Origin: a virus
Lineage: Duplodnaviria; Heunggongvirae; Uroviricota; Caudoviricetes
IMG/VR virus record: IMGVR_UViG_3300014205_008670
Span: 1-64,000 of that record
DNA length: 64,000 nucleotides
Direction: 5' to 3' (one strand)
The translations under genes were made by a program, and so were the position numbers. The notes under the pieces were generated by a model. That model was not told where the DNA came from. It did no database searches and saw nothing but the letters and a program-made list of their open reading frames with translations. Shown one piece after another: positions 18,610 through 57,877 of this stretch (position 1 is its first letter; each line of letters starts with the position of its first letter).

Positions 18610-18748
18610 TTACATTAGGTCGGACTGAGTTGATTATCCGCTCAGAGGTCCAAACGCAGGTTCGAATCCTGCCCAACTAGTAGTACTGGTTGGTCGTCTA
18701 GCGGTTCAGGACGGGAAAAAACTCAACTCTAATTTTTATCTAATGTAA
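18610..18748 (+). ncRNA. YrlA-like Y RNA with a circularly permuted tRNA-like module (T-arm, acceptor stem, D-arm) closed by a long-range helix
   Basis: T-arm GCAGG-TTCGAAT-CCTGC (18656-72). Acceptor 3' strand CCAACTA (18673-79), 5-nt loop, acceptor 5' strand CTGGTTGG. D-arm GTCT-AGCGGTTCA-GGAC (18696-712). Flanking strands TTACATTAG...GAGTTGA (18610-33) and TCAACTC...CTAATGTAA (18723-48) are complementary. GGTCGGA resembles the conserved Ro-binding GGUCCGA. Confidence 0.5.
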
Positions 18749-27048: not shown

Positions 27049-27993
27049 TTGAAAATGTCTAAACAAGTATATATTACTTCTGGAAACATATTAGGTGATA
27101 CTAAAAAGGTTTTTGATAAGTCAGATGAATTGAAGAAAGCATTTTCAAGAGAAGATTCATTTGATAAAAATGATGATAAAACAGAAAAACAAAAAAGAGT
27201 TGATAGAAAAGCATATGAGAAATCTAAAATACAAGATCGTTCTTGGGAAGAAGTTAGAAGCTCTTCACTTAAAGTAGATAGAGTAAATGAAAAACAAATA
27301 GGAAAATCTGGAAATATTGTTGAAAATCAATTTAAAAATGAGCTTCCAGACACAAAACCTAGTTTGTTTAACTCAAACCCGTTTTTAAATATAAAAAATG
27401 AAGAATTTACTGAGCATATTATATCTTCTGGAAAAACAAAAAGAAAAGAAGAAAGAAATAGAAAAAATAGTGGTAGGGATTTTGAAATTTCAAAGGCAAC
27501 AAATACTTCAGATATTCCAGCAAACATGATGGGCTTTACTCCGCATAGAACCTCTTTAACTCAAGGTGAGCTTCCAAGACTTCCAGAGCTTCCAGAAATA
27601 AAATTACAAAAAGAAAATATTACAAGATCTATTGAGGCCGGAATGAAAGTAGCCGAAATTTATAAAGAAATAGAAACAAAAAAGCATGAAGAGTTCTTAA
27701 AAGATGCAAATGATGTAAGAAAATGGCAGGATTATGCTGCATCAAAAATAGAAAAAAATTATACTAAAAAAATGGATTCTACAGAAAAACCTTTTAATTT
27801 TGGGAACCCAAATGAATATAGAGAGTCTTCATATAAAGAAGATTTATCTCAAATATTTAAAAAAGAAGAAATGTCTAATAACGAAGTTAATATTAAGAAA
27901 GATAGAAAAGATATTGAAAATTCAACAAGAAAACATCGTAGTGATGATAGGTCTTGGGAGTCAACAGAAAACTCCAAATCTAAAAAGTTTTAA
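27049..27993 (+). CDS. hypothetical highly charged protein
   Basis: RBS GGAG. Lys/Glu-rich. Confidence 0.5.
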   Translation: MKMSKQVYITSGNILGDTKKVFDKSDELKKAFSREDSFDKNDDKTEKQKRVDRKAYEKSKIQDRSWEEVRSSSLKVDRVNEKQIGKSGNIVENQFKNELPDTKPSLFNSNPFLNIKNEEFTEHIISSGKTKRKEERNRKNSGRDFEISKATNTSDIPANMMGFTPHRTSLTQGELPRLPELPEIKLQKENITRSIEAGMKVAEIYKEIETKKHEEFLKDANDVRKWQDYAASKIEKNYTKKMDSTEKPFNFGNPNEYRESSYKEDLSQIFKKEEMSNNEVNIKKDRKDIENSTRKHRSDDRSWESTENSKSKKF

Positions 27994-28006
27994 TTGGAGT
28001 AAAAAA

Positions 28007-40948: not shown

Positions 40949-43900
40949 ATGTCTTTTATTAAAAAAGCAAAAATACAATTTACAAATTCGTCTTCTTTAG
41001 CTGATATAGTTAAGGGTTCTTGCATGGAAGACGTTATTTTATATAACCCTAGAACTGCATTTATAAAACATGATATTTCTAAAAATTTAATTCAAGCAGA
41101 AAATTCTTTAGATATTGTTGCTGAATTAGAGCAAAGAGATCCTGATGAATGGGTTTTATTTAGGGCTAGGGCAATTGATGCTGGTGGTTCTGAAAAAACT
41201 GGAGAACATTATCATGGTGCCAATGATAATGGCGATTATTTTTCAGAGGAAGAGTTATTAAAAGTTTTTGCAAAAGATAGTAATGGAAGGCAGGTTCGTT
41301 CTTTTGAGACTTTTATTAATTGTCCTGTTTTTACAAATCATCAAAATACAGATATTGAAAAAGCTCGTGGAAAAATTATAAATGCCTTTTATGATAAGGA
41401 TAACCATTGTGTGTATATAGATGGTTTAGTTGATGCAAAAGCATATCCTGAATTAGCTAGAGGTATAAGAGAAGGGTATATAAGTGATGTAAGTATGGGT
41501 GCAAGTGTCAAGTCTTCAAGCTGTTCTATTTGTGGTCATGAGGCTGAAAACGAAAAAACTTATTGTACTCATATAAAAAACAATAAAGGTAAAAAAATTG
41601 GTGGAAAACCAGTTTATGAAATAAATCATGGTATTAAGTTTATTGAATTGTCGGCAGTAACCGATGGTGCTTGTGATAACTGTACAATTCAAAGTGCTTA
41701 TTCTGGTAGTGAGTTTCTAAAGAAATTAGATGAAACGGTAAGAAAGGGAAATAGTTTTTTATCTTCTATTAAAAATGCATCTTCAGATTCTACCATAAAG
41801 GTTGCTCGTGGTGAAGATGTTGATAAATTAAATAAGGCTTTAGATTTATTAAAAGAAGTAGCGGAACAAATTTTAGGATCAAAGGATGTTGACTTTGAAT
41901 TCCTTGAGGATATTGGATCTCTTTTAGCTGAACTTCAAAACTTAATTGTTGACCTTGTTGAAGCTGGGTTTGCCAATCAAAGTCAGGGTGGTGGGGTTCC
42001 TACTAATCCAATGGGTGAGGGTGTTCAAAAGGGTTTAAACACAGAAACACAAACAGAGACTCCTCCTGCGCCAGCGGAAATACCTCCAACCACATCTCCG
42101 CCACAGCCTTCACCAGTTGGTTTGGAAGCACAATTGCCATTAGCAGTTTCATCTCCGGTTGAAAAAAATATAAAGAATAGTAATAAAATAAAAGGGTTAA
42201 AGACAATAAATCAAGAATTGGTAAAATTACAAGAATCTATAAACAGATTTAAAATGGAACTAAAAAGTGGAGAAAACGTCATGGCTTCTAGTAAAGAGCT
42301 AAAAAGAATTCAAACAACAAATAAAATTTCTGAGAAATTTGATAAGTTACTTGAAACTCAAGCTTCCATGAACCTTCCGATTATAATTTCCGAAGGTCCT
42401 TATTCGGTAAAAATAGACTTTGAAAAAGGAATTACAGGATATGTTGGTAAGGAAGTTGTTGCTTCCATTTCAAATGAAGAATTAGAAGAAAAAGCATTAG
42501 AAAATATAAAAGAAAATCCGTCAGTTTTAGCTGGTCGTCTTATTGAAAAGATGGCTAAAAAATACAACCAAAATGGAGAGATAAAAATGGCTGGTGAAAA
42601 ATTAGATATTAAAGAAGCCCTTCAAACAAATGCACCTCCTCAAGAGCAAGTGCAAGAAGGCCAGTTAGAAGACCTCTCTGGTAATTGGTCTCGTAAAAAT
42701 GATGTTTCTGAAGCTACTGGTCAGCTTGGTGTAACTACACAGAAACAATTAGATAATGTTCCTAAATCTTCAGAAACAGGTAAAGGTGATTGGAATAGAG
42801 TTCGTCCAGAGGGTGTTAAAGAAAACTTACAAGTAACAGAAGGACAGCTTGACAATCCTACAAATCCTTCAAAATTAAATTCTGAAAGAAAAGAATCTGG
42901 TGTTGCAAAGGCTGAAGGACAGCATAGCCAAGTACAAGAAGGGCAATTAGGTGATAAGAGCCTTAATTTTGGATCTGAAAGATGGCAAGATGATACTGCT
43001 GCTGGAGATTTTATTCCAGTTACAGAAAATCAGTTTGAAGGAAAAGACAGACAGGGTACTGCCATTAATGAAGTTCCAGAAGGTCAATTAAAAAACTATC
43101 GTCAGGGTCCTGATGTTGCAAATTCAAAATCAGCATCAATACCAGCACGAGTAGTTAATGCAATGATTAATGGTATGGCTGACGCAGTTCTTAAGGAACA
43201 TGTTTCTCCAAAAGTTGTTGCTGCTACAAAGGTTGGAATAAACGATCTTTTAGTTGATACGAATAATAGGCTTGCTCCTTATATTAAGGCTTCTATTGGA
43301 AGTAATATGAAGTTAGCTTCTCCTTATTTGGAGGATGCAATTTCAGTTCTTTATGAAGATAAAGATTATTTACAGAAAAAAATAGCTTCTTATGTTGATG
43401 CAAAAATTGAAAATCTTAAAAAATTAGCTTCTGGTGTTGGTCAAAAAACACGATTTGAAGTTCTTCGTGAGGCATTTAGAAAGGAATCAGAAAGAAGTGC
43501 GTTTTCTATAGACGCATCAGTTCTTTCAAACCTATTCCCCGGTGTTTCTGACTTTACCAATTTAGATGAAAAAATGATTAAACAAAAGTTCTTAGAAAGC
43601 AATCCTGGCTCTAAACTCTTAGGGTTTAGAAAGGTAGATGGTGGATTTATTGCTGAACTTGAAACAGACAAAAACAAACCTTCTGAGGTACAAAACAATG
43701 TATCTGAACAGGTGCCTAATTTGGATTCAAATTCACAAGATGTATCTATTGGAGTAGGTCAAGAAACAATGAATACAAATGAAGAAATTCCAGTATCCGC
43801 TGAAGCTATTAAAAAGCTTAAGGCTCTTGCAATGCAAAAGAAAGCTCAAAATCCAGCAGGTACAACTCTTCCTCCTGCTGGTGGTGCTCCTGCCGGTGGT

Positions 43901-46579
43901 GCTGGTGCTCTTCCTCCAGATATTGGTGGTGGTGCTGGTAGTTTTGCGGGTCCCGGTGCTGGTGCTGATACAGAAATGGCTCCAGATGATGAACTTTCTG
44001 GAGAAGAAACAGAGGTTAGTGGAGAATCAAAACCATTTGGTGCAATAAATCCATTTACTGGAAATGAAAATGTTGATGTTATTGACGGACACTATAGAGA
44101 TGCAGATACAGGTCTTGAGTGGGAAGCTGAAGTAAACATCAAAGTTTTAAATCCAGAAAAAGTAAAGGGACTTGATTTTGTTGAAGATGAGGGTGGTGTT
44201 GATGAGGGAGAAGGTGAGCCAGATACAGAAGGAATTAATAGTGAAATAGCTTCTCCTGAAGCTGAACCTGCTGCAATGCCGGGTGCTGGTGGTGGAGGAA
44301 TGTCTCCAACAAGTCCAATGGCAAGTGCTCCAAACTGGGTTAAAGATGCTCCTTTAAGACTTTCTATGTCTCTTAGTCCAAATATGTTTATGGGTAGCTA
44401 TCTAAAGACAGCTTCTTCAAAAACAAATATGAATCACCACAAACTTGGTCAAGTATGCCCACAATGTGGTTCTAAAGACAAGGTTGCTTTTAAGAATAGT
44501 GAAGGAAATTGTGGTAGTTGTGGTTGTAAAACATATGTTTCTACTAAAAAAGCAAAAAACGGAAAAGTTGATTCACATGTTTATATGCTACCAAATATTG
44601 AAAGATCAAATAAGAAAAATCCATGGGGTGGTCATGCTGTAACCGCAGAAGTTGAAAACAGAGAAGAAATTCAGAAAAATATTCATACAATTCTTTCTCA
44701 AAGAAAAGCTTTATTAAAGGCTGCTGCAACAATAGATCAAGATCCTTGGATTGCTTGTGTTTCAGATCAGGTTACTTCAGGTTATTCTGGAGATAATGCA
44801 ATTCAAATTTGTTCTTCAATAAGAGACATTCAACTTAAAAAGATTGCAATGGAAAGTGAAAATTCAAAAAATCCTTTTGAAAAGAAAGATAAAAAGAAAA
44901 ATGAGAAATCAGAAGACTCAAATGATGAAGAAACTGATAAATTAGAAGATTCTAATAAGTCAGATGATGTTGATTTTGAGGAGACAGAAGATAAGAGTAA
45001 GGATGATGATGTTGATTTCGAAAACGAATCTTCAGAAAGTGAAGTTGATGGTGAAGAATTAGGACTTGAAGATGAGTCTTCAGAAATAGAAGGTGAAGAA
45101 GACAATGTAGAATTCGAAAACGAAACTGAAGGTGAGGAAGTTGCGGATTCCTTTGGTGATGAATTCGAAGAAATAGAAGAGGATGATATGAATGCTGAAG
45201 TTGCAGAATTAGGTTCTCCAACTTCTATAAAAGTTACTCTTCAAGATGCTGAAGGGAAAACCGTTGAATTAGTTGCCGATGATGGTGGAATTACTGTTTC
45301 AGAACAAGAAGAAGTAGAAGGTGAAGTTGGAACAGAACCTGAATTTGGTGATGATTTTGGTGATGGTTTTGGAGAAGAAGGTGATTTAGAGGATGACATT
45401 GAAATTAATGATGTTGTGACTGATTCTGATGTTGAGGAAGATCCTCTTTCTTCAGTTTTTAGTGATGGGCTTGATAAGTTTGACGAAGAAGATTCAGAAG
45501 ATGAAGAAGAACCAAAAATGACATCTGCTGATATAATGGCTAAATCTCTTCAAACATCAGAACTTTTAAGAGGAGATAGAGTTGCATCTTCAAATAGAAG
45601 TGGTGGTGGATCTTTAGATATGGATATATTAGCTGCTGCTTTAGGATTCAAAAAAGAATCAACTCAGACTGTACCAACAGGAACTCCGGTAAAGGGTGTT
45701 TTGAGGGATGAATCAGTAGGAGTTTCAGATGAAGGCGGAAATGTTCATACCACAGAGCATGAAAATACAGCAAAGAAAAGAAATTCAATTGCAGACAGTT
45801 CTTTTAATGAAAAGGGAGTAGTTGATGGTTCTGGTCGTGGAGTTGAAGTTATAAAGGGTAGGGAAGGGCGTTTTTCTGGTTCAAACAAGGACGTTGTAGT
45901 TGCAAATGAAAAAACTAGTGACTGCAAGAAAAGAAAAGACGTTCATCCTGTAGATGAAACAGGTGGTGGAGAAAGAACTTCAAAAGAAAAACAAATGGCA
46001 AAACAGTTTAAAGGATCTACTGAACCTAAAGAGAAAAAAGAAGCTTCTAAGAATGTTAAGGCTCAATCACAAGCAAAACAAACTGAACCAACCGATGTCG
46101 GTGATGGAGAAAAGGGTGGTGAAAAAATTAAAACACCACGAAATACTTCAAAATCAAAGCCAGAAGAAATTGAAGGAAGAAAGGATGTAAAGTCACCATT
46201 AAAGGTTCGTAAAGACAATTATGGAAAGGGTTCTGAGGGTAAGAATCTTCATACCGATATTGTTCCTAGAGACAAAGGTGGTGATGGTCTTGGTGGAAAG
46301 GCAGTAACTTTCGAGAAAGAAAATTCAGAAAGTGCAACTTCTGGAAATCCTGATACATATGTTCAGAAATTCCAATCTGACAGTTACATTAAACCAACTT
46401 CATATGGAAAAGAAGAAAACCATGCAACAAGTGGTCCAAATACAGCATCGTCTTTGGCAATTAAAAAGGTAGCAAGTGAGAACGGAATAAAGAATCTTAA
46501 AAATCTTGAAGCAGTAGATTTCGGAGGCTTTATTGTTGTTAGAGACTTAAAAAACGGAAATACATTTAGAGTAGAATAA
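40949..46579 (+). CDS. giant virion morphogenesis protein (1876 aa): N-terminal region with a zinc ribbon that sits in the protease/scaffold slot, long acidic and Gly/Pro-rich low-complexity tracts, C-terminal module paralogous to the next gene
   Basis: RBS AAGGGAG. Position between portal and capsid. Asp/Glu-rich segment 44900-45500. Gly/Ala/Pro tracts. The C-terminal ~110 aa repeat in the 46758 gene. Confidence 0.7.
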   Translation: MSFIKKAKIQFTNSSSLADIVKGSCMEDVILYNPRTAFIKHDISKNLIQAENSLDIVAELEQRDPDEWVLFRARAIDAGGSEKTGEHYHGANDNGDYFSEEELLKVFAKDSNGRQVRSFETFINCPVFTNHQNTDIEKARGKIINAFYDKDNHCVYIDGLVDAKAYPELARGIREGYISDVSMGASVKSSSCSICGHEAENEKTYCTHIKNNKGKKIGGKPVYEINHGIKFIELSAVTDGACDNCTIQSAYSGSEFLKKLDETVRKGNSFLSSIKNASSDSTIKVARGEDVDKLNKALDLLKEVAEQILGSKDVDFEFLEDIGSLLAELQNLIVDLVEAGFANQSQGGGVPTNPMGEGVQKGLNTETQTETPPAPAEIPPTTSPPQPSPVGLEAQLPLAVSSPVEKNIKNSNKIKGLKTINQELVKLQESINRFKMELKSGENVMASSKELKRIQTTNKISEKFDKLLETQASMNLPIIISEGPYSVKIDFEKGITGYVGKEVVASISNEELEEKALENIKENPSVLAGRLIEKMAKKYNQNGEIKMAGEKLDIKEALQTNAPPQEQVQEGQLEDLSGNWSRKNDVSEATGQLGVTTQKQLDNVPKSSETGKGDWNRVRPEGVKENLQVTEGQLDNPTNPSKLNSERKESGVAKAEGQHSQVQEGQLGDKSLNFGSERWQDDTAAGDFIPVTENQFEGKDRQGTAINEVPEGQLKNYRQGPDVANSKSASIPARVVNAMINGMADAVLKEHVSPKVVAATKVGINDLLVDTNNRLAPYIKASIGSNMKLASPYLEDAISVLYEDKDYLQKKIASYVDAKIENLKKLASGVGQKTRFEVLREAFRKESERSAFSIDASVLSNLFPGVSDFTNLDEKMIKQKFLESNPGSKLLGFRKVDGGFIAELETDKNKPSEVQNNVSEQVPNLDSNSQDVSIGVGQETMNTNEEIPVSAEAIKKLKALAMQKKAQNPAGTTLPPAGGAPAGGAGALPPDIGGGAGSFAGPGAGADTEMAPDDELSGEETEVSGESKPFGAINPFTGNENVDVIDGHYRDADTGLEWEAEVNIKVLNPEKVKGLDFVEDEGGVDEGEGEPDTEGINSEIASPEAEPAAMPGAGGGGMSPTSPMASAPNWVKDAPLRLSMSLSPNMFMGSYLKTASSKTNMNHHKLGQVCPQCGSKDKVAFKNSEGNCGSCGCKTYVSTKKAKNGKVDSHVYMLPNIERSNKKNPWGGHAVTAEVENREEIQKNIHTILSQRKALLKAAATIDQDPWIACVSDQVTSGYSGDNAIQICSSIRDIQLKKIAMESENSKNPFEKKDKKKNEKSEDSNDEETDKLEDSNKSDDVDFEETEDKSKDDDVDFENESSESEVDGEELGLEDESSEIEGEEDNVEFENETEGEEVADSFGDEFEEIEEDDMNAEVAELGSPTSIKVTLQDAEGKTVELVADDGGITVSEQEEVEGEVGTEPEFGDDFGDGFGEEGDLEDDIEINDVVTDSDVEEDPLSSVFSDGLDKFDEEDSEDEEEPKMTSADIMAKSLQTSELLRGDRVASSNRSGGGSLDMDILAAALGFKKESTQTVPTGTPVKGVLRDESVGVSDEGGNVHTTEHENTAKKRNSIADSSFNEKGVVDGSGRGVEVIKGREGRFSGSNKDVVVANEKTSDCKKRKDVHPVDETGGGERTSKEKQMAKQFKGSTEPKEKKEASKNVKAQSQAKQTEPTDVGDGEKGGEKIKTPRNTSKSKPEEIEGRKDVKSPLKVRKDNYGKGSEGKNLHTDIVPRDKGGDGLGGKAVTFEKENSESATSGNPDTYVQKFQSDSYIKPTSYGKEENHATSGPNTASSLAIKKVASENGIKNLKNLEAVDFGGFIVVRDLKNGNTFRVE
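46060..46400 (+). repeat. diverged direct repeat, copy 1 (paralogous coding module); copy 2 at ~47010..47340
   Basis: Nucleotide similarity is visible (e.g. gctcaatcacaagcaaaacaaactgaacca vs gctcaatcacaagcgaaacaaactgagcct), along with the aligned peptide modules. Confidence 0.6.
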
Positions 46580-48756: not shown

Positions 48757-49623
48757 ATGAGTATTATAAAGAATACTGCTAACGAGTACAACAGAGAGTT
48801 ACTCATTGCACAGGCACTTGAAACCCCAGAAGGTCGAGTTGCTTTAGCGCAAGCTATGGTTGAGCCAATCAAGAGAGCTTTAGAATATCAAGCAATTGGT
48901 AGAAAGTTACTCATGGTTGATGAGCTTCCACAGGGTGCTCTTGCACGTTACGAGAAGGATGTTGCATCAACTGCTTACGTCGTTTCAAGACGAGGCGGAG
49001 TTCGTGATCGTATCGTTGAAGGTGAAGAAGTTTTGGTTCCAACATGGGAAATCGCTGCTAATCCACAGATTAGACTAAGCGAAATCAAAGCACGTAGATT
49101 CTACATTGTTGATCGTGCCCAAATGAAAGCCAAAGAAGCTATTCAGAAACAAGAAGATACTGAAATCTTGGGTGATATTGAAGCTGCTGTTCGTGCAGAT
49201 CAAACCGTTACTCAGTCTGGAGACCTTAGTATCGCCTCCCTTAACTATGCATTCTCAACTGTTGAGTCTCACGACCTAACCGTTGCAAAAATAGTTATGC
49301 ACCCACAGCAATACGCAGACGTTAGACTTTTTGGTCGTGACGTTTTCGATGAAGCAACCCGTAGAGATGTTTTGATGTCTGGTTTGTTTGGACATCTTTG
49401 GACAGCAGACATTCACGTTTCGCATAGAGTTCCAAGAGGTTCTGTTTATCTCTTAGCTCCTGCTGAATTCGTTGGTGCAATCCCAGTTAGACAAGATATT
49501 ACCGTTCTACCTGCTGATGATCCAAAGAATTTGAGACTTGGATGGGTAATCTATGAAGAGTTGGGTGTCGTAGTCATTAACGATTATTCAATCGCAAAGG
49601 TAAATCTTACCTCAACCAGCTAA
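48757..49623 (+). CDS. major capsid protein-like (small HK97-fold candidate)
   Basis: Strong RBS AAAGGAGAA. Elevated GC/codon bias typical of a highly expressed gene. Last gene of the portal-scaffold string. Followed by the strongest terminator in the window. No motif-level proof. Confidence 0.5.
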   Translation: MSIIKNTANEYNRELLIAQALETPEGRVALAQAMVEPIKRALEYQAIGRKLLMVDELPQGALARYEKDVASTAYVVSRRGGVRDRIVEGEEVLVPTWEIAANPQIRLSEIKARRFYIVDRAQMKAKEAIQKQEDTEILGDIEAAVRADQTVTQSGDLSIASLNYAFSTVESHDLTVAKIVMHPQQYADVRLFGRDVFDEATRRDVLMSGLFGHLWTADIHVSHRVPRGSVYLLAPAEFVGAIPVRQDITVLPADDPKNLRLGWVIYEELGVVVINDYSIAKVNLTSTS

Positions 49624-49809: not shown

Positions 49810-49850
49810 GGCCAACTTAAGTTGAACACTAGCCATAGTTCGTCGTACAT
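49810..49850 (+). promoter_or_regulatory. candidate promoter (TTTTGGCCA element, palindrome CAACTTAAGTTG, -35 TTGAAC, -10 TACAT)
   Basis: TTTTTGGCCAACTTAAGTTGAAC-17nt-GTACATTAT. Shares CCATAGTT and CGTCGTACAT strings with the 18514 promoter region. Confidence 0.3.
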
Positions 49851-49899
49851 TATTATTAGTTTTGTTTTACGGACATCATGTAGTTTAAAGGATTCAAAA

Positions 49900-52020
49900 A
49901 TGTTTAAGTGTCTTATTTGCGAGAAAAATGGAATAGAAATATATAAAAAAAATTTAGTTCCACATATATTAAGCTTTCACAAAGAGCTTAAGGATGGAAC
50001 AAAAACCTACATAGATATGTTTCCCGGATCAAAGCTAAGAGAAGCCCCTAAAACAAGTTATGGAAATAAAAGTTTTAGAGATATGTGTGTAGATAAATCT
50101 GTAAAATCAAGAATTGGAAAAAATTTATCAGAAGAACATAAATTAAAAATTGGGTCTTCAAATAAAGAAAGTTTAAAGTATTTAGAAAGTCGAAAAATAT
50201 TATCTGAAAAATTTAAAACTGGTGAATTAATTAATTGTAGAAAAAAATATATTGACAAAAACGTTCTTGAAAATCTATACCTCAACGAATTAAAGTCTAT
50301 AAATGAAATTTCAACAATTTTAAATATAGGAAGAGATATTATATCAAATGAGCTTTCACGTCATGAGATAGTAAAAAGAAATAGATCGTCTTCTATGAAA
50401 ATAAAACATTCAAAAGAAGATAGCATTTCATTAAGCAAGCAAGAAATTGATGTGATAACAGGACAGTTGCTGGGAGATGGGTGTCTTAGAAAAGGTAAAG
50501 GAATAACCCCACAATACATTCAAAGTTGTAAATATATTGATTTTTTACTTTGGATAAAAAGCTTACTTCCAAGTGTTGTTTGGTCGGAGAATGCAATAAC
50601 TCTTGGAAAAATTACAAATTGTGGAAGTAGATATTTTAGTTTAAACTCAAAAACACATCAAGATTTTTTAAATATTCACAGTAAGTTTTATTATTATAAT
50701 ACAAATAAAAAAAAAATGAAAAAAAAGATACCAATTGATTTAAAAATAAATGAAACAATATTATTGCATTGGTTTTTGGGTGATGGACATTCTTATATTG
50801 GAAAGGACAATTCAAAAGAGATAGCTATTTCTGCTTGTGATTTTAATGAAGATGATTTAGAAAGAATTGTAATACCTCAAATAATAAATATGGGTATTAA
50901 TTGCAGGGTTAAAAAAAGAAAACAGGGACCTGTTATAAAATTTTATGCCGAATCTTATGAGAATTTTTATAAAAAGATTGGAATAAAATCTCCAGTTGCC
51001 TGTTATTCTTATAAATTTGAAATGGTTGAAAAACTATTTCCTCATCTTTTAGAAAACATAAAAGAAGAAATTATTGTAGCCTCTTCAGAAGAATCTTTTA
51101 ATAATTACAGAGCTAATGGATTTCCTTTCATCAAAATGTCATCTGAAAATAAACTTAACAGTTTCAAAAATTTGATAGATTTAGATGTTTCTAATTTACT
51201 TGAGTTAGATGTAATAAAAATAAATAGAGTTGGTCTTAAACTTGCCAACTATTACCATCCGCAAATATTTAATATAAAAACAAAAAATTCAGAATATAGT
51301 CCATTAGATATTTTTCAAAATGACTTGTTGTTAAAAAAAATTACCGAAGATTTAAAAGAAAAATATAACATAATAAAAGATTCCGATGTTAGATCTAGGT
51401 GTAGGTATATTTCAAATAGTATGATAATGAATTTTAGACCAACTATAGCAAAGTTTATAACAAAAATGTTTACTGATAAAAAATCTGTTGTTTTAGATCC
51501 TTGTGCTGGATTTGGAGGAAGATTACTAGGATGTACTTCGTGCGAAGAACGAGAATATATTGGTATTGATCCTGAATATACCGTTATAAAAAATCTTGAA
51601 AGGATGAGTGTTGATCTTGGAATAGAAAATAGAATAAAACTATTCAATTTGTCATATGAAAATTTTGAATATAATAAAGAGTCTATAGATTTAATTTTAA
51701 CTTCACCACCATATTATGATCTAGAGCACTACAATCAAAACGATCCAGAACAAAGTAATATTAAATATAAAACTTATGAAGAATGGAAAAACGGATTTCT
51801 ATCTAACCTAATAGAAAAATCTTATAGTTTACTAAAAAACAAATGTTATTTTTGTATTAATTTAAAAAATACAGAATATCCAATTGCAGATGATTTTTTT
51901 CAACTATCTTGTAAACTATTTGATCATATAACTACATATAGAATTGAATTTGAATCCGGCGCCATAAAAAATAACGAATATAGATATGAACAGTTATTTA
52001 TTTTTAAAAAAGGAAGTTAA
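49900..52020 (+). CDS. LAGLIDADG homing-endonuclease-like / DNA methyltransferase fusion protein
   Basis: N-terminal C2H2-like finger. NUMOD3-like KSRIGKNLSEEHKLKI. LAGLIDADG-type motifs QLLGDGCL and FLGDGHSY. C-terminal MTase motif I LDPCAGFGG and motif IV TSPPYYD. Start moved to the ATG at 49900, which has an AAAGGA RBS. Confidence 0.6.
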   Translation: MFKCLICEKNGIEIYKKNLVPHILSFHKELKDGTKTYIDMFPGSKLREAPKTSYGNKSFRDMCVDKSVKSRIGKNLSEEHKLKIGSSNKESLKYLESRKILSEKFKTGELINCRKKYIDKNVLENLYLNELKSINEISTILNIGRDIISNELSRHEIVKRNRSSSMKIKHSKEDSISLSKQEIDVITGQLLGDGCLRKGKGITPQYIQSCKYIDFLLWIKSLLPSVVWSENAITLGKITNCGSRYFSLNSKTHQDFLNIHSKFYYYNTNKKKMKKKIPIDLKINETILLHWFLGDGHSYIGKDNSKEIAISACDFNEDDLERIVIPQIINMGINCRVKKRKQGPVIKFYAESYENFYKKIGIKSPVACYSYKFEMVEKLFPHLLENIKEEIIVASSEESFNNYRANGFPFIKMSSENKLNSFKNLIDLDVSNLLELDVIKINRVGLKLANYYHPQIFNIKTKNSEYSPLDIFQNDLLLKKITEDLKEKYNIIKDSDVRSRCRYISNSMIMNFRPTIAKFITKMFTDKKSVVLDPCAGFGGRLLGCTSCEEREYIGIDPEYTVIKNLERMSVDLGIENRIKLFNLSYENFEYNKESIDLILTSPPYYDLEHYNQNDPEQSNIKYKTYEEWKNGFLSNLIEKSYSLLKNKCYFCINLKNTEYPIADDFFQLSCKLFDHITTYRIEFESGAIKNNEYRYEQLFIFKKGS

Positions 52021-52021
52021 A

Positions 52022-53716
52022 ATGGAAAGAAAAGTATTTAATTTTAATTCTATAATTTTAAAAGAAAAAACAATTGAGAAGTATGGATATGATCCTGATA
52101 AGTTTGGTAAATCTTCTTCTAAATTTGTTGTAGCTACTTGTAGATTCTGCGGTAAAGATTCTAATATTAGAAAAGGATTTTTTAATAAGTCAGGGTCTGC
52201 TTGTCATAAGTTATGTAAGATTGAAGAGCAGAAACTAAACTCCCCATTTAAAAGTAAAGAAACTCGTGAGAAGGCATTAAATACAATTAAAGAAAGATAT
52301 GGGGATAGCAGAGAGTCTATAAAGGAAAAGATTTCTATTTCTAAAAAAAATAGTAATGAAAAAACAAAGCAAACTTGTTTGGAAAAATATGGTGTGGAAA
52401 ATGTTTTTCAAGCAAAAGAAGTTAGAAAGAAAATTAAAGAAACAAACTTAGAAAGATATGGATTTGAAAATCCAATGAAAAATATTGATATTGCAAAAAA
52501 GGTAAAAAATACAAATCTAGAAAGATACGGGGTTGATAATCCTTTAAAAAGAGAAGACATTAAAGAAAAAATAAAAGAAATGAATATAGAAATGCATAAT
52601 GATTCTAATATAAATAAATTTGATTTTTTTATACAAAAAACAAAGGTTTCTTGTAGTAAGAATATATCTGGTGGAGAAAATGAAAATCATTTATTATGCA
52701 ATGAATTAAATGGTAATAATTTTTGGGATCTTTTAAAACAGGGATTACCACTAAAAGAAGTTTGTAAGCGATTGAATTTAAACTATCAGTCATGTACTTC
52801 TGTTTTACTGAAAGATGAGTATCGTGAAAAATACTATTCTAACTATACATTTCCTAAAGCACAAATTCAAAAAAAGATATATGATTTATTGGTTTCTTAT
52901 GGGTTTAGTGTTTTAATGAATGATAAAAGTGTTATCAGTCCTTTGGAATTAGATATTTATATTCCTGAAAAAAAATTTGCAATTGAATTTAATGGATCTT
53001 ATTCTCATTCTGAAGCTGCTTTAGACACAACTGAATCTAGAATGAAACATAAGGGGAAGCTTGATTTATGTAGAAAAAATGGTGTTTATTTATTTAATAT
53101 ATTTGAGCATCAGTGGATTGCTCGTGAAAAACAATTTTTGAATTTTATTAAAACTATTTTAGGTTTAAATTCAATAAAGATTGCAGCAAGGAAATGTGTT
53201 GTTGCAAATTATAGCAGTAAAGAATTTATAGACGAAAATCATATTCAGGGATGGGGTGCGAGAACTATTCAATGTTTTAATTTAATATATAACAATGAAA
53301 TAGTTGGATCTATGACAGCTAGTCCTCATCATAGACAAAATGTTGAGGATGGGGTTATTGTTTTAAATCGACTTTGTTTTAAGGATGGATATAGTATTCA
53401 GGGTGGTGCAAGTAGATTATTTAGTGCGTTTTGTATTTGGGCTAAGAATAAAGGTTATACAAAAATATTAAGCTGGAGTGATAATTGTTGGACTGAGGGA
53501 AAGATTTATGAAATTTTAGGATTTAAATTTAAAGAAGAATATAAACCAGACTATTTTTATTGGGACCCTAAAGGTGATTGTTATAGATCAAAACAATCTC
53601 AAAGGAAGGTTTCAAATGGATGTCCTCCAGAAATTACAGAGAGAGATTGGTGTTATAGTCATGAACTATATAGGATATATGATTGTGGTAAAAAGCTTTT
53701 TGAATATACATTATAA
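52022..53716 (+). CDS. homing-endonuclease-like protein with tandem EKYG/ERYG DNA-binding repeats and a PD-(D/E)xK (DUF559-like) domain
   Basis: Repeats TCLEKYGVENVFQ / TNLERYGFENPMK / TNLERYGVDNPLK. Then ELDIYIPEKKFAIEFNGSYSHSE...GVYLFNIFEHQW resembles the Vsr/DUF559 core. Confidence 0.5.
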   Translation: MERKVFNFNSIILKEKTIEKYGYDPDKFGKSSSKFVVATCRFCGKDSNIRKGFFNKSGSACHKLCKIEEQKLNSPFKSKETREKALNTIKERYGDSRESIKEKISISKKNSNEKTKQTCLEKYGVENVFQAKEVRKKIKETNLERYGFENPMKNIDIAKKVKNTNLERYGVDNPLKREDIKEKIKEMNIEMHNDSNINKFDFFIQKTKVSCSKNISGGENENHLLCNELNGNNFWDLLKQGLPLKEVCKRLNLNYQSCTSVLLKDEYREKYYSNYTFPKAQIQKKIYDLLVSYGFSVLMNDKSVISPLELDIYIPEKKFAIEFNGSYSHSEAALDTTESRMKHKGKLDLCRKNGVYLFNIFEHQWIAREKQFLNFIKTILGLNSIKIAARKCVVANYSSKEFIDENHIQGWGARTIQCFNLIYNNEIVGSMTASPHHRQNVEDGVIVLNRLCFKDGYSIQGGASRLFSAFCIWAKNKGYTKILSWSDNCWTEGKIYEILGFKFKEEYKPDYFYWDPKGDCYRSKQSQRKVSNGCPPEITERDWCYSHELYRIYDCGKKLFEYTL

Positions 53717-53951
53717 ATCGTATATTATATCATATATCTTTGAGAGAAACTATATGTCTAAAAGTTTTTTTAATTTAAAAGTCTTTAAAAAAAAAGATAA
53801 AGAAGACAAAGATAAAAATTCTAAAAAAGAAGATCTTAGTCATAAAAAATCATGTTGTTTTGTTAAGAGAGAAGAGACTTTTTCAAAAAACAAATAAATT
53901 ACATTAAATTGTGTTGGTTTATTTTTATTTTAAATAATAATTTAATATACA

Positions 53952-53986
53952 AATAGGACTATTTTAGTCCTATTTTTTATTTTTAC
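53952..53986 (+). terminator. intrinsic terminator
   Basis: AATAGGACT-atttt-AGTCCTATT, followed by TTTTATTTTT. Confidence 0.5.
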
Positions 53987-54077: not shown

Positions 54078-54509
54078 ATGGCAAAAATAAATTCTATAAA
54101 AATTGTTGTGGCAGAAGATGATGAGGATGATAAGTCTTTTATAATTGATGCTTTTAAAAACCTAAATCTAATAGATAGTGTTAAATTTGTTGAAAATGGA
54201 GAGGAACTTATTAAGTATTTAAAGAAGACAGAAAGGTATCCTGATATTATTTTTCTAGATTTAAATATGCCAATACTAAATGGTATTCAATCTTTAAAAA
54301 TAATAAAGAATGATATAGATTTTAAAAAAATACCAATAATAATTCTTACAACATCAAAAGATCAAGAAGATATTGACAAAACATACGGATCTGGAATTAG
54401 TGCTTATATTGTAAAACCATTTTCATTTGAAGATCTTTTAATGGTTGTAAGAGAAACTACAAACTATTATTTTAACACTGTAACACTTCCATATAGATAT
54501 GAAGAGTAA
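54078..54509 (+). CDS. stand-alone CheY-like response-regulator receiver (REC) domain protein
   Basis: KIVVAEDDEDD (acidic pocket), FLDLNMP (phospho-acceptor Asp), ILTTS (Thr), YIVKP (Lys), all at canonical spacing. Confidence 0.8.
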   Translation: MAKINSIKIVVAEDDEDDKSFIIDAFKNLNLIDSVKFVENGEELIKYLKKTERYPDIIFLDLNMPILNGIQSLKIIKNDIDFKKIPIIILTTSKDQEDIDKTYGSGISAYIVKPFSFEDLLMVVRETTNYYFNTVTLPYRYEE

Positions 54510-54511
54510 AA

Positions 54512-55357
54512 ATGATACGAAAGTCCCAAAGAACAACTCCAAATCTAGAAAATTTAACTGACGAAGAATTAAAACCAAATAAATATGAGGTCTATGATTA
54601 TAACCCGGGAAGAAGCCGTGAATGGATGGGTGTTGTTAATAGCTATAGGTATATTGAAGATATAAGAGTTGGAATGAGTGAGCTTTTTAGTAATGCAAAA
54701 AGCTGTTTATTAGATCTTCCTAAAACAAGGAAAAAAATATATGAATTAGAGTCAATTTTTTTTAATTTCTTAAATTCTGAGGTTAAGAAACCAATAGAAC
54801 AAATTCCATACCCCAAAGGACAATCAGACGAGAATACTCCAACAAGATTAATTAGATCATTTATTGAATTACCAATTCCAGTTTTAGAATTAATTCAACA
54901 TATGAATTATGTACTTTCAAACTTTATGAACAAATCAACTGCCGAAAAATATAGTAATTTTTTTAGAGATGAAATCAGAGATACTTTTGAAAAAGAACTA
55001 TTTTCTCTTGGGAAAAAAGATTTGGATTTGGATGAAGAATTGGATTTTGGTGAAGATTCTGATGTTGGGGGAGAGCAAATAATGGGGGAAGCAGACAAAA
55101 AATTTAATTTGAAAAAAACTGCAAATAAAATTGAAACATTGATAAGTATAAATTCTATTTCAAATGAATCGGATTTTTTAATTGATTTTGAAATAGATCC
55201 AAAAATAGATTCTTTTTTTCAAGACTATGGCGAGAAGGGATATAATGAAATTTTAGATACAATAGAATTTTTAAAAAATGAAATAAAAAGAAACTTTCAA
55301 GAAATAAATAAAAATGCCCTTACTTACAAAAACGTTTTTTCCAATCCTAAAAAATAA
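54512..55357 (+). CDS. hypothetical protein translationally coupled to the REC gene
   Basis: TAAaaATG junction with the REC stop. Acidic middle region. No known motifs. Confidence 0.5.
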   Translation: MIRKSQRTTPNLENLTDEELKPNKYEVYDYNPGRSREWMGVVNSYRYIEDIRVGMSELFSNAKSCLLDLPKTRKKIYELESIFFNFLNSEVKKPIEQIPYPKGQSDENTPTRLIRSFIELPIPVLELIQHMNYVLSNFMNKSTAEKYSNFFRDEIRDTFEKELFSLGKKDLDLDEELDFGEDSDVGGEQIMGEADKKFNLKKTANKIETLISINSISNESDFLIDFEIDPKIDSFFQDYGEKGYNEILDTIEFLKNEIKRNFQEINKNALTYKNVFSNPKK

Positions 55358-55429: not shown

Positions 55430-57877
55430 ATGTCTGAATTATTAAAGAGAATTATTGTTGCCCAAATAGATAATGTTCTTATTGAAGATTTAGGTGAGAA
55501 AGGTGTTTTTCTAAGAAAAAAGGGAGATTCTAGAGATTTATTATCTCAATATGTTGTTGGAAAAAATAAATTTAAATTTACACTGCAAGATATTTGCTCT
55601 TCACGTTCTTTAGATAATTTAATAAAGCGTGGACATTTAAAATTATATGATGAAAATGGTAATGAATTAGGTAATGATGCTGGTGGGGATGCCGAAAAAT
55701 CTACCAATTTAGCAACACTAAAAGATGTTTATGACAACATTGGTGGAAACAATAGCTCTTCAATAAATGACTTAAATGATGTTACTGTAAATTCGCCAGA
55801 AGATGGTGATATTTTAATTTATGGACAATCTTATGATTATGGAATTGAAAGCCAATGGTCTAATATTAATGGATTAGATTATTTTACTGCATTAAATTTT
55901 GGTAAAAGTCCAATTAGAATAGAGGTTTCTGATTCTGATTATGTAATTTCTTCAGATCAAAATTTACATATTGTTTACACATCCTTAACAAGAGAAAGAG
56001 AAGTTACTCTTCCACCAGCAAATAAAGTAAATCAAACGGTAAGAGTTTATGACGAAAGTGGAAGTTGCAGTCCTGAAAATCATATTGATATTACATCTTC
56101 TGGATCTGATGTAATAGAATGTTGTAATAATTATATTATTCAAAATAAATATGGTGTTGTTCTATTTGTTAATAATGGAAATGGTACTTGGAATATTTTA
56201 TCTTCTGAAAAATATTATTCTGCCGGTATAACAGATATGCCATTATTAACAGATAATGGTGATGGAACTGTTTCTTTAGAAAGAGGAATGTGTAATTTAT
56301 ATACTGATGAATATGGTTTTGGGTCTATTTATCCATTTCATATATTACCTAAAACTTTATCATTAACAAATATGTCAAATAATTATATTGTTGTTAACTA
56401 TAACAATGATAGTCCAGAATATCAAGTGATAACTGATGTTTCTTTAATTAATGAAACTACAATGATTCCAGTATATACCATTTACAGATATAATCTTAAT
56501 TTAAATATTTTAAATTGGGATACTTTAGGTATAGCACTCATAAATAAAATACATCAATCTATAGTAAAAACTCAAAGATACAGACTTGAATCAGGATTGT
56601 CTTTATCTGAATCAGGAACAAGAAATGTTGTTGTTACATCGGGAATTGTTTGGACCGGTGCAGTAAAGCATACATTGACATCTTTTAACTCTTCTACTGA
56701 CAATTTATATTTTGTTTATCATTCTGGCGGTGTTTGGCAAGATCCAACTCTTATTAACGAATACAATAATACACAATATGATAATGGCACAAATCTTCAG
56801 ACTCTTTCTGGGGGAAGATATGCTGTTAATTACATTTATAGATCAGTTGTTGATGAAGAATCTGAATGCTTTCTTGTTTTAGGTAATGGAAACTATAGAC
56901 TGCTTGATGCACAAGGAAGTTTACCGCCAACAGATTTGCCTTCATCAATAACATCACACTGTGTTTTAGTTGGAAGAATAATAGTAGAGAAAAGTCAAAA
57001 TGTTGCTTATCAGATAGACAGTATCTTTTCTGCTGCTTTTGCTTTATCAACCAGTGTTGATCACAATGACCTTGTTGGATTACAAGGAGGGGCTGTAGAC
57101 GAATATTATCATTTAACAAATTCTGAACATTTAGGTCTTACAACTAACTTACAAGATACAATAGAAGGGTTAGGTCTTGATCATACAACACTTGCAAATA
57201 TTGGAGCGCATACACACGATGAAATTGATCAGCATATAGATTCTGTTTCAAATCCACATTCTACTAGTGATGCGAATTTAATTGTAACAGATGTTACAAC
57301 AAATAATGTTGGAACTTTAAAACATGGATTTACCCCCAAACTATCTGGTGTAGCAGGGCAATATTTAGATGGGAATGGAAATTGGACAACTCCTAGTGGA
57401 ATTGCAAATGCTTATATTTCTCAATCATTTGATTTAGAAACCAGTATAAATGTTATTCATAACTTTGGAGCTTATCCGCTAGTTCAAGTTTTAGTTAGTA
57501 GTTCTCTTTTTATTCCATTTTCAATTACCCATAATACTGTAAATAATTTTACAGTAACTTTTACATCTCCTATTAGTGGGATTATAATTGCAACTTTAGG
57601 AAGTCCACAATTAAATAATTTTATTGTAACTGCCAATGACTATAATGCAACCAATAGTGATTATATAATAGAGGTTACTGGAATTGGGAAAACAATAACA
57701 TTACCGACAGCACTTGGAATAGAAGCAAAAATATTTATAATTAAAAATAAATCTACAGGTTCTATATTTGTAAACACAACAAGCTCACAATTAATTGATA
57801 CTCAATTAGCTTTAGAACTTATACCATTGGAATCAGTAAGTTTATACTCTAATGGCACACAATATAATATTATATAA
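55430..57877 (+). CDS. tail fibre/receptor-binding-like protein
   Basis: Asn/Ser/Thr/Gly-rich beta composition. Position in the tail block. Confidence 0.45.
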   Translation: MSELLKRIIVAQIDNVLIEDLGEKGVFLRKKGDSRDLLSQYVVGKNKFKFTLQDICSSRSLDNLIKRGHLKLYDENGNELGNDAGGDAEKSTNLATLKDVYDNIGGNNSSSINDLNDVTVNSPEDGDILIYGQSYDYGIESQWSNINGLDYFTALNFGKSPIRIEVSDSDYVISSDQNLHIVYTSLTREREVTLPPANKVNQTVRVYDESGSCSPENHIDITSSGSDVIECCNNYIIQNKYGVVLFVNNGNGTWNILSSEKYYSAGITDMPLLTDNGDGTVSLERGMCNLYTDEYGFGSIYPFHILPKTLSLTNMSNNYIVVNYNNDSPEYQVITDVSLINETTMIPVYTIYRYNLNLNILNWDTLGIALINKIHQSIVKTQRYRLESGLSLSESGTRNVVVTSGIVWTGAVKHTLTSFNSSTDNLYFVYHSGGVWQDPTLINEYNNTQYDNGTNLQTLSGGRYAVNYIYRSVVDEESECFLVLGNGNYRLLDAQGSLPPTDLPSSITSHCVLVGRIIVEKSQNVAYQIDSIFSAAFALSTSVDHNDLVGLQGGAVDEYYHLTNSEHLGLTTNLQDTIEGLGLDHTTLANIGAHTHDEIDQHIDSVSNPHSTSDANLIVTDVTTNNVGTLKHGFTPKLSGVAGQYLDGNGNWTTPSGIANAYISQSFDLETSINVIHNFGAYPLVQVLVSSSLFIPFSITHNTVNNFTVTFTSPISGIIIATLGSPQLNNFIVTANDYNATNSDYIIEVTGIGKTITLPTALGIEAKIFIIKNKSTGSIFVNTTSSQLIDTQLALELIPLESVSLYSNGTQYNII

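What the first reader, a model, noticed from the sequence alone, without database searches (positions are those of the whole stretch)
54078..55357. Orphan CheY-like receiver domain co-transcribed with an unknown 281-aa protein
All five hallmark REC residues are present (DD, D in FLDLNMP, T, K), but there is no output domain and no kinase. The gene is translationally coupled (TAAaaATG) to an acidic unknown protein and sits in its own terminator-bounded unit before the tail genes. A phage REC domain could tap host phosphorelays or act as a phosphate sink. The partner may be a novel effector.
Basis: partly seen in the sequence, partly recalled or inferred. Interest (0 to 1): 0.55.

Follow-up and report, generated by a model that had tools for sequence, protein, structure and literature searches.

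The report
Phage receiver protein missing its kinase
A giant phage related to Bacillus phage G carries an intact bacterial-type phospho-switch protein (a receiver domain); closely related phages also carry a matching sensor kinase that is absent from this window, and the unknown gene beside the switch looks like an ordinary clade-specific phage gene, not its dedicated partner.

Summary
Both ORFs exist exactly as described. ORF 54078-54509 is a canonical receiver domain (Pfam Response_reg, 72.7 bits) with every catalytic residue. It has no output domain, and no kinase lies anywhere in the 64 kb window. It is not chemotaxis-CheY-like. Its best solved relatives are the Rcp1/RcpA/RphyB single-domain regulators, which are normally encoded next to a histidine kinase.

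The window is a phage-G-like jumbo phage (capsid protein 54% identical to phage G gp27). The receiver belongs to a monophyletic lineage found almost entirely on phage or phage-like contigs. Members are 55-79% identical to one another and at most 50% identical to any cellular homologue. The lineage is under purifying selection.

In two related lineages the same receiver comes with a soluble PAS-HisKA-HATPase_c kinase. One is phage L009; the other is a 3-kb contig of unproven phage origin. So the "orphan" is the regulator half of a phage-borne two-component system. In this phage the kinase slot after the capsid gene holds a homing-endonuclease/methylase gene and a DUF7487 gene.

The 281-aa neighbour belongs to a five-member, fast-evolving family. 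That family occurs without the receiver in two lineages, and the receiver occurs without it in three. The effector idea is therefore not supported. The upstream terminator is real; the downstream one is not.

The parts
54078..54509 (+). Single-domain response regulator (receiver only, 143 aa). Key residues are E13/D14, phospho-acceptor D61, T91, Y110 and K113, with a C-terminal 'VTLP' tail.
   Evidence: Pfam PF00072, 72.7 bits. Best PDB matches are 5te9, RphyB 4zyl, 6xvu, RcpA 1k68, RcpB 1k66 and Rcp1 1i3c. Catalytic residues are invariant or nearly so. dN/dS is 0.17-0.25 against phage homologues.
54512..55357 (+). 281-aa acidic, mostly helical protein of unknown function. It belongs to a five-member family seen only on contigs of this phage clade and starts 2 nt after the receiver's stop codon.
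   Evidence: Only itself among 5.8 billion clusters. Two distant homologues among 1.84 billion representatives. A profile search brings the family to five members. AF2 mean pLDDT is 58, with a helical core at pLDDT about 80-89. No fold match.
53951..53975 (+). Intrinsic terminator (11-bp stem, 3-nt loop, T-run). It closes the upstream unit and leaves a 100-nt AT-rich leader before the receiver gene.
   Evidence: Terminator scan. Fold of -11.8 kcal/mol, z = -6.2, with 0 of 200 shuffles as stable.
53754..53897 (+). Conserved 47-aa ORF with a Cys-Cys motif. It marks the downstream edge of the variable slot, and the homologous ORF directly follows the kinase in L009.
   Evidence: Called as a 47-aa gene in L012. 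Its homologues, the L009 41-aa ORF and the L001 43-aa ORF, match each other by tblastn. Similarity to the window ORF rests on reading the three sequences side by side.
49822..53716 (+). Two low-GC cargo genes: a LAGLIDADG homing endonuclease fused to a DNA methylase (49822-52020), and a DUF7487 protein with a weak, sub-threshold GNAT match (51986-53716). They fill the slot between the capsid gene and the 47-aa ORF, where L009 has its histidine kinase.
   Evidence: Pfam and PADLOC MTase_II/HEase hits. GC is 0.26-0.27 against 0.43 for the capsid gene. No homologues in L001, L009 or L016. L009 gene order.
48757..49623 (+). Major capsid protein, the anchor for synteny. It is 96-97% identical to L009 and L001, 85% to L016, and 54% to Bacillus phage G gp27.
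   Evidence: phrog_2522, E 6e-72. tblastn against phages. tblastn against loci.
55430..57877 (+). Modular fibre-like protein (815 aa). Its conserved N-terminal domain lies upstream of the receiver in L009 and upstream of the 281-aa homologue in L013. It belongs to the same shuffled region.
   Evidence: tblastn.

Best explanation
ORF 54078-54509 is a functional, phosphorylatable single-domain response regulator of the Rcp1/RcpA/RphyB type, carried by a phage-G-like jumbo phage.

It belongs to a receiver lineage found almost entirely on phage or phage-like contigs. The lineage was acquired once from bacteria, has since diverged from all known cellular homologues, and is kept under purifying selection. 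In this lineage the receiver is the regulator half of a phage-borne two-component system. Its kinase is a soluble cytoplasmic PAS-PAS-HisKA-HATPase_c protein, still encoded in some relatives in the variable slot just downstream of the major capsid gene.

In this phage that slot holds a homing-endonuclease/methylase gene and a DUF7487 gene. The receiver is therefore locally orphaned. It must be phosphorylated by a kinase encoded outside the 64 kb window, by a host kinase, or by acetyl phosphate.

Inferred mechanism, from established receiver biochemistry:
1. Phosphorylation of D61 flips the T91/Y110/K113 switch.
2. This changes the alpha4-beta5-alpha5 face and the oligomeric state.
3. The protein then binds or releases a protein target, because it has no DNA-binding or enzymatic domain.

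The target is unknown. The downstream 281-aa gene is a fast-evolving backbone gene of this phage clade. It sits next to the receiver because both lie in the same shuffled region, not because it is a dedicated effector.
For: Shown:
- Receiver identity and intact catalytic residues.
- Phage origin: capsid protein 54% identical to phage G gp27, virion protein phrog_1645, and giant ORFs.
- Receiver homologues 55-79% identical sit in syntenic phage contigs whose capsid proteins are 96-97% identical.
- No cellular homologue exceeds 50% identity in 185,579 species genomes.
- The clade is monophyletic, 80/100 NJ bootstrap.
- dN/dS is 0.10-0.26.
- A kinase is present in L009. It has two PAS_3 domains, the H-box SHDLQEPLR and an HATPase_c domain (E 1e-21), and is HK853-like. 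L010 holds the kinase's C-terminal end followed by the same gene order, and L011 has that gene order from the 41-aa ORF onward. A kinase also lies directly upstream of the receiver in P0004/L007.
- In 67 of 80 bacterial loci holding relatives, a kinase ORF lies within 400 nt.
- Slot synteny: capsid-[kinase]-41aa in L009, against capsid-[endonuclease/methylase + DUF7487]-47aa in the window.
- Receiver and 281-aa family are distributed independently.

Inferred: phosphorylation itself, the switch mechanism, the protein-binding output, and the kinase replacement scenario.
Against: - No kinase was found in the window or in the 16 kb around the L001 receiver. The receiver may therefore work without any phage kinase in these lineages.
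- I could not read the rest of this phage's genome.
- The kinase-receiver link rests on only two lineages. One of them is a 3-kb contig whose phage origin is inferred only from sequence similarity.
- In L009, two genes separate the kinase from the receiver.
- The receiver and the 281-aa family are adjacent in two lineages that have diverged strongly (receiver 58% identical, partner about 20-23%). This could reflect function rather than position.
- dS values are near saturation, so the dN/dS ratios are rough.
Confidence: 0.6

Rival explanations
1. The receiver and the 281-aa protein form a dedicated two-gene signalling module. The phosphorylated receiver binds and controls the 281-aa protein, which is a novel effector.
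For: The stop and start codons are 2 nt apart in the window. The same order with a 12-nt spacer occurs in L001 and L018, even though the receivers there are only 58% identical and the partners about 20-23% identical. Both genes lie behind one strong terminator.
Against: The 281-aa family occurs with no receiver upstream in two lineages. In L016/L017 it directly follows the capsid gene. In L013-15 it follows a fibre-like N-terminal-domain gene, and no receiver is found in 16.8 kb. The receiver is followed by an unrelated 123-aa gene in L009 and L007, and by reverse-strand genes in L005. The partner has no recognisable enzymatic or binding domain and no fold match.
Confidence: 0.15
2. The receiver is a true orphan that works on the host. 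It has no phage kinase. It is phosphorylated by host histidine kinases or acetyl phosphate, and acts as a phosphate sink or decoy that rewires a host two-component pathway during infection.
For: No kinase lies in 64 kb. In both the window and L001 the kinase slot holds other genes, yet the receiver stays intact with all catalytic residues. Stand-alone receivers acting as phosphate sinks are established in bacteria, for example CheY paralogues in Sinorhizobium; this point is my own knowledge and was not tested here.
Against: Relatives do carry their own kinase. The genome is incomplete, so a kinase may lie elsewhere. No cellular receiver is more than 50% identical, so there is no sign of mimicry of a particular host regulator. 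The host is unknown.
Confidence: 0.2
3. The receiver is a decaying remnant of a lost two-component cassette and has no current function.
For: The kinase is missing from its slot. Non-synonymous divergence is higher between the two kinase-less lineages (window against L001, pN 0.26) than among L005, L007 and L009 (pN 0.12-0.15).
Against: The reading frame is intact. All catalytic and switch residues are invariant. dN/dS of 0.17-0.25 is well below 1.
Confidence: 0.05

Closest known systems
Rcp1 / RcpA / RcpB / RphyB: phytochrome-associated single-domain response regulators (PDB 1I3C, 1K68, 1K66, 4ZYL; also 5TE9, 6XVU)
   Same: These are the best solved matches (E 6e-22 to 2e-16). They share the same roughly 140-150-aa receiver-only architecture, the same catalytic residues and the same C-terminal hydrophobic-x-(L/I)-P tail. 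The bacterial family is usually encoded beside a histidine kinase.
   Different: Identity to any cellular member is at most 50%. The phage clade lacks the roughly 8-residue insertion between helix 2 and strand 3. The kinase seen in relatives has PAS_3 sensor domains, and Pfam detects no phytochrome module. In this window no kinase is adjacent.
Chemotaxis CheY
   Same: The same receiver fold and phospho-Asp chemistry, and a stand-alone domain.
   Different: CheY structures match much less well (E 1e-12 to 1e-9, against 6e-22). The NCBIfam CheY model scores 45.9 bits against a cut-off of 189. No chemotaxis genes were seen among the ORFs scanned. The C-terminal VTLP tail is absent from CheY.
Classical HisKA-type two-component systems (HK853/RR468-like)
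   Same: The L009 kinase is a class I HisKA/HATPase_c kinase. It best matches 8f71, followed by the HK853 set of structures (4jas, 2c2a, 3dge). It has a canonical H-box, so relatives carry a complete kinase-regulator pair.
   Different: The pair is encoded by a jumbo phage inside the structural gene region. The regulator has no output domain. In the window only the regulator half is present.
cREC: the divergent receiver domain of jumbo phages linked to NAD+/ADP-ribose systems (Iyer et al. 2021, PMC7824862)
   Same: A receiver-fold protein encoded by jumbo phages.
   Different: cREC is described as never associated with histidine kinases and as linked to NAD+/ADPr enzymes. The protein here is a conventional receiver (Pfam 72.7 bits), has kinase-linked relatives, and none of the nearby genes scanned matched an NAD+/ADP-ribose enzyme family.
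Receiver-containing PHROG families (phrog_731, 20458, 5982, 37855, 8810)
   Same: The receiver matches them at E 9e-21 to 1e-8. Receiver domains in phage or prophage proteins are therefore already on record.
   Different: Those profiles are 227-1030 positions long, so they describe receivers fused to other domains, and all are annotated 'unknown function'. None is a 143-aa receiver-only family. GenBank phages hold only 5 weak (about 30% identity) hits, all in unannotated faecal contigs.
Virus-encoded sensor histidine kinase of mirusviruses (PMC10132985)
   Same: A precedent for a virus carrying two-component signalling hardware.
   Different: Those are viruses of eukaryotic plankton. No sequence relationship was tested.

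Membership tests
Response regulator receiver domain (Pfam PF00072) | Sequence match above the curated threshold over the whole domain | tested here: met
   72.7 bits against a cut-off of 30.2, covering profile positions 1-110 of 111.
Response regulator receiver domain (Pfam PF00072) | Catalytic quintet: acidic pair, phospho-acceptor Asp, Thr/Ser and Lys | tested here: met
   E13/D14, D61, T91 and K113, plus Y110, are aligned to solved receivers. They are invariant or nearly so in 13 sequences.
Response regulator receiver domain (Pfam PF00072) | Phosphorylation on the conserved Asp | not testable with these tools
   This needs acetyl-phosphate or kinase assays, with D61A as the control.
Rcp1/RcpA/RphyB-type single-domain response regulators | Receiver-only architecture with a C-terminal extension ending in a hydrophobic-x-(L/I)-P motif, and closest similarity to solved members | tested here: met
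   The protein is 143 aa and ends ...NTVTLPYRYEE. The top PDB hits are 5te9, 4zyl, 6xvu, 1k68, 1k66 and 1i3c, all aligned through the (L/I)P motif.
Rcp1/RcpA/RphyB-type single-domain response regulators | Encoded next to its cognate histidine kinase | tested here: not met
   No kinase in the 64 kb window. The feature is met in relatives L007/P0004 and near-met in L009. In 67 of 80 bacterial loci holding relatives, a kinase ORF lies within 400 nt.
Rcp1/RcpA/RphyB-type single-domain response regulators | Cognate kinase is a (bacterio)phytochrome | tested here: not met
   The kinase in relatives has two PAS_3 domains plus HisKA and HATPase_c. No phytochrome (PHY/GAF) domain hit was found.
Rcp1/RcpA/RphyB-type single-domain response regulators | Homodimer through the alpha4-beta5-alpha5 face | not tested
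The property itself is recalled from the Rcp1/RcpA/RcpB crystal-structure literature (my own knowledge).
Chemotaxis CheY | Equivalog-level similarity and a chemotaxis gene context | tested here: not met
   NCBIfam CheY scores 45.9 bits against a cut-off of 189. None of the ORFs scanned matched a chemotaxis gene family.
Complete two-component system (kinase plus regulator) | Both components encoded together | tested here: not met
   The window has the regulator only. A complete pair is present in related phage L009, and in P0004/L007, whose phage origin is unproven.
cREC (NAD+/ADPr-linked divergent receiver of jumbo phages) | Never linked to histidine kinases; neighbours are NAD+/ADPr enzymes | tested here: not met
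   Relatives are kinase-linked. The neighbours are capsid, fibre-like, endonuclease and methylase genes. The definition is taken from PMC7824862.
Known anti-phage defence or counter-defence proteins (PADLOC) | Match to a defence-system model | tested here: not met
   No PADLOC hit for the receiver, the 281-aa protein or the L009 kinase.

The most novel reading that the evidence does not exclude
Phage-G-like jumbo phages carry their own cytoplasmic two-component system, made of a PAS sensor kinase and a compact Rcp1-type receiver. With it the virus senses the physiological state of the infected cell and adjusts its late programme (assembly, lysis timing or host takeover). In this phage the kinase has been displaced by mobile-element cargo, and the retained receiver has been rewired to host kinases. 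It may act on phage-specific targets such as the 281-aa protein.
Probability: 0.3. Interest if true: 0.7.

Novelty: new member of a known kind. Interest (0 to 1): 0.42.

Why it matters
Two-component signalling is the main way bacteria sense their surroundings, yet it is hardly discussed as a viral tool. Six exact phrases for phage- or virus-encoded kinases, regulators or two-component systems returned no paper in the searched library. GenBank phages hold no full-length homologue of the kinase and no close homologue of this receiver.

A phage lineage that keeps a sensor kinase and a receiver under selection would mean that these viruses make signal-dependent decisions during infection. The natural variation found here (kinase plus receiver, receiver alone, neither) is a ready-made comparative series for testing what the module does.

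For this window alone the result is more modest. It holds a well-preserved member of a known protein family in an unusual carrier, next to an uncharacterised clade-specific gene.

Tried and rejected
- **Close relatives in phage collections.** DNA megablast of 50-60 kb against 50,697 phage records found nothing. tblastn of the 281-aa protein against phages found nothing. IMG/VR scans with the 281-aa protein, the receiver, the L009 kinase and a receiver alignment found no relatives. This clade is absent from that collection.
- **Metagenome scan with the kinase alignment.** Only distant kinases (33% identity or less) came back, and none was on a 99-kb contig. It says nothing about whether this phage has a kinase elsewhere.
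- **Walking beyond the window.** Four exact-protein look-ups on three window proteins all returned 'not on record'. The rest of the genome could not be read.
- **Structure of the 281-aa protein.** The single-sequence model had pLDDT 42. A five-sequence alignment raised it to 58, with a confident helical core. Foldseek against viral and PDB libraries gave no hit below E 0.5. No function can be assigned.
- **Is the 281-aa protein the equivalent of phage G gp28, the gene after its capsid gene?** hhalign gave probability 0.03, so this is rejected.
- **Fusion by frameshift or readthrough.** Rejected. The two genes are in different frames in the window, and two in-frame stops separate them in L001.
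- **Defence or counter-defence role.** No PADLOC hit.
- **Rfam.** Nothing at gathering thresholds in the window. Nothing in the 590-nt leader of L001.
- **Literature.** No paper describing this lineage was found.

Full report
**1. The observation**

The first ORF matches Pfam Response_reg end to end (E 3.5e-20, 72.7 bits against a cut-off of 30.2). Alignment to solved receivers and to 12 homologues places these residues:
- acidic pair E13/D14 (D15, D17 and D18 are also conserved in this subfamily)
- phospho-acceptor D61 in FLDLNMP
- T91, the aromatic switch residue Y110, and K113-P114

The protein is one receiver domain plus a short tail; there is no output domain.

A kinase profile built from ten kinases, phmmer and tblastn found no histidine kinase and no second receiver in any of the 451 six-frame segments of the window. 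Nothing scored above 9 bits.

The 281-aa protein is acidic (pI 4.9) and matches nothing in Pfam, PHROGs, NCBIfam or PADLOC.

The terminator upstream of the receiver gene is real (53951-53975, -11.8 kcal/mol, z = -6.2). The supposed one after 55357 is not (z = -0.15, and the scan found none).

**2. What the window is**

It is a low-GC (0.305) phage region with giant ORFs. The capsid protein (48757-49623) is 54% identical to gp27, the major head protein of Bacillus phage G, and matches phrog_2522. A virion structural protein (phrog_1645, E 1e-84) follows at 57949. Other genes include Ro60/TROVE, an intein-containing RtcB, an SPFH protein and an M28 peptidase. Many genes have AGGAG-type ribosome-binding sites. 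The host is unknown.

**3. What kind of receiver it is**

The best solved matches are not chemotaxis CheY. They are the single-domain regulators 5te9, RphyB (4zyl), 6xvu, RcpA, RcpB and Rcp1 (E 6e-22 to 2e-16). All are aligned through a shared C-terminal hydrophobic-x-(L/I)-P motif, which is VTLP in the window protein. CheY structures score E 1e-12 or worse, and the NCBIfam CheY model is far below its cut-off.

The best-scoring cellular homologues listed among the 444 protein hits and the 80 genomic loci are likewise stand-alone receivers of about 134-177 aa. In 67 of the 80 bacterial loci a kinase-like ORF lies within 400 nt of the receiver gene. This family is normally half of an adjacent kinase-regulator pair.

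**4. A mostly phage-borne lineage**

Six proteins are 55-69% identical to the window receiver, and up to 79% identical to one another. The next-best hits, all cellular, are at most about 50% identical. They are spread over Bacteroidota, Alphaproteobacteria, Verrucomicrobiota, Cyanobacteria and other phyla.

The seven form a monophyletic group in a neighbour-joining tree (80/100 bootstraps). They share the loss of a roughly 8-residue loop.

Where enough context is available, they sit in related phage contigs. L001 (a 180-kb contig) and L009 (65 kb) have the same order as the window: giant protein, then a ~440-aa protein, a ~195-aa protein and the 288-aa capsid protein. Their capsid proteins are 96-97% identical to the window's.

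Pairwise dN/dS among the phage receivers is 0.10-0.26. dS is near saturation, so these ratios are approximate.

**5. The missing kinase**

In L009 the gene directly after the capsid gene encodes a 483-aa soluble protein. It has two PAS_3 domains, an H-box (SHDLQEPLR), and HisKA and HATPase_c domains (E 1e-21). It most resembles 8f71 and HK853-type kinases. After it come a 41-aa ORF, a fibre-like gene and then the receiver. Independent samples support this: L010 holds the kinase's C-terminal end followed by the same genes, and L011 has the same gene order from the 41-aa ORF onward.

In the contig of P0004 a 481-aa PAS-HisKA-HATPase_c kinase lies 115 nt upstream of the receiver. L007 shows the same junction, and its kinase is 45% identical to L009's.

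Relatives of this phage therefore carry a complete two-component system.

In the window, the interval between the capsid gene and the homologous small ORF (47 aa, 53754-53897) holds two low-GC genes with no counterpart in the relatives:
- a LAGLIDADG endonuclease/DNA methylase fusion
- a DUF7487 protein

L001 has yet another filling. I infer that this is a cargo slot in which the kinase has been replaced. This is an inference from synteny, not a demonstrated event.

Whether a kinase exists elsewhere in this phage's genome could not be checked.

**6. The 281-aa neighbour**

It is the only member of its 90% cluster among 5.8 billion clusters. An exhaustive HMMER search of 1.84 billion representatives found two relatives (E 1e-28 and 5e-8). 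A profile search found two more. All five members lie on contigs of this phage clade.

| Lineage | What lies upstream of the family member |
|---|---|
| L016/L017 | Capsid gene directly; no receiver |
| L013-15 | A fibre-like N-terminal-domain gene; no receiver in 16.8 kb |
| L001, L018 | Receiver |
| Window | Receiver |

Conversely, the receiver is followed by an unrelated 123-aa gene in L009 and L007, and by reverse-strand genes in L005. The two genes therefore assort independently.

The family evolves very fast: about 20-23% identity between the window and L001 copies, although their capsid proteins are 96% identical.

AF2 with the five-sequence alignment gives a confident four-helix core (residues about 44-92 and 120-170, pLDDT about 80-89). 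The termini and the acidic region are disordered. Foldseek finds nothing meaningful. I cannot assign a function. Its position beside the capsid gene in L016 suggests a backbone gene of the structural region, but that is only a lead.

**7. Mechanism**

Shown: an intact receiver of a kinase-coupled family, conserved in a phage lineage that includes kinase-bearing members.

Inferred from established receiver biochemistry: phosphorylation at D61 drives the T91/Y110/K113 switch and changes the alpha4-beta5-alpha5 surface. With no output domain, signalling must go through protein-protein contacts.

The phosphodonor in this phage is unresolved. It could be a phage kinase outside the window, a host kinase or acetyl phosphate. 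My rough split is even between 'kinase elsewhere' and 'no phage kinase'.

**8. Comparison and novelty**

The protein passes every sequence-level test for a receiver and for the Rcp1-type subfamily. It fails the context features: no adjacent kinase, and no phytochrome-type kinase in relatives.

It is not the divergent cREC described in jumbo phages, which is never kinase-linked (PMC7824862).

Receiver domains already appear in PHROG families of unknown function. Sensor kinases have been noted in mirusviruses (PMC10132985).

I found no paper describing a phage-borne kinase-regulator pair of this kind. GenBank phages contain no full-length homologue of the kinase and only weak receiver hits.

**9. 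Verdict**

- For the window itself: a new member of a known family in an unusual carrier, next to an uncharacterised clade-specific gene.
- The wider lead, a two-component system maintained by phage-G-like phages, is more interesting. It rests on few contigs and lies outside the window.

Noticed in passing
window 18626-18733 (+), in the gap between RtcB (15896-18508) and Ro60/TROVE (19325-21010): A weak but full-length match to the Y RNA-like family YrlA (RF02553): 18.1 bits, E 0.99, far below the gathering score. It lies in an 800-nt non-coding gap next to a phage Ro60 gene and an intein-containing RtcB ligase. It could be a divergent phage Y RNA that completes a Ro60-RtcB RNA-repair module.
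   Followed up: partly
window 53754-53897 (+); L009 6149-6274; L001 7005-7136: A conserved 41-47-aa lysine-rich ORF with a Cys-Cys motif (..KKSCCF....KSCCL....KECCI..). It directly follows the kinase in L009 and lies just before the terminator upstream of the receiver in the window. Its function is unknown.
   Followed up: partly
window 49822-53716 (+): Two low-GC (0.26-0.27) genes sit next to the 0.43-GC capsid gene. One is a LAGLIDADG_2 homing endonuclease fused to an N6/N4 DNA methylase (732-aa ORF with a TTG start). The other is a 576-aa DUF7487 protein with a weak, sub-threshold GNAT match. Neither is found in the related loci. They look like recently acquired mobile cargo.
   Followed up: partly
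window 15896-18508 and 36675-40157 (+): The RtcB gene is interrupted by an intein with a LAGLIDADG domain. The 1160-aa ORF carries LAGLIDADG_3 and DUF559/MTES_1575 endonuclease domains. The relative L016 has an intein in its giant structural-region protein. This phage clade is rich in self-splicing and homing elements.
   Followed up: no
window 55430-57877 (+); L009 6509-7876; L013 7242-7817: A fibre-like protein with a conserved N-terminal domain of about 100-135 aa (58-72% identity), combined with different middle and C-terminal parts (815, 455 and 191 aa). Its position relative to the receiver differs between genomes.
   Followed up: partly
L001 7411-8001: A 590-nt non-coding stretch upstream of the receiver gene in the 180-kb relative. 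It is GC-richer than its surroundings and contains long inverted repeats. It has no Rfam match and may be an unknown RNA or a degraded gene.
   Followed up: partly
window 302-11413, 22437-26552, 27800-33295, 40949-46579 (+): Four very large ORFs (3703, 1371, 1831 and 1876 aa). The 1371-aa ORF has no Pfam match; the other three were not scanned against any family library. The 1876-aa protein just upstream of the capsid module is 55-67% identical to proteins in L001 and L009, and its N-terminus matches the phage G region upstream of the capsid gene.
   Followed up: no
L009 12193-12681 (-): A 162-aa OrfB_IS605 / Cas12f-like TNB-domain fragment (TnpB-like) inside the related phage contig.
   Followed up: no
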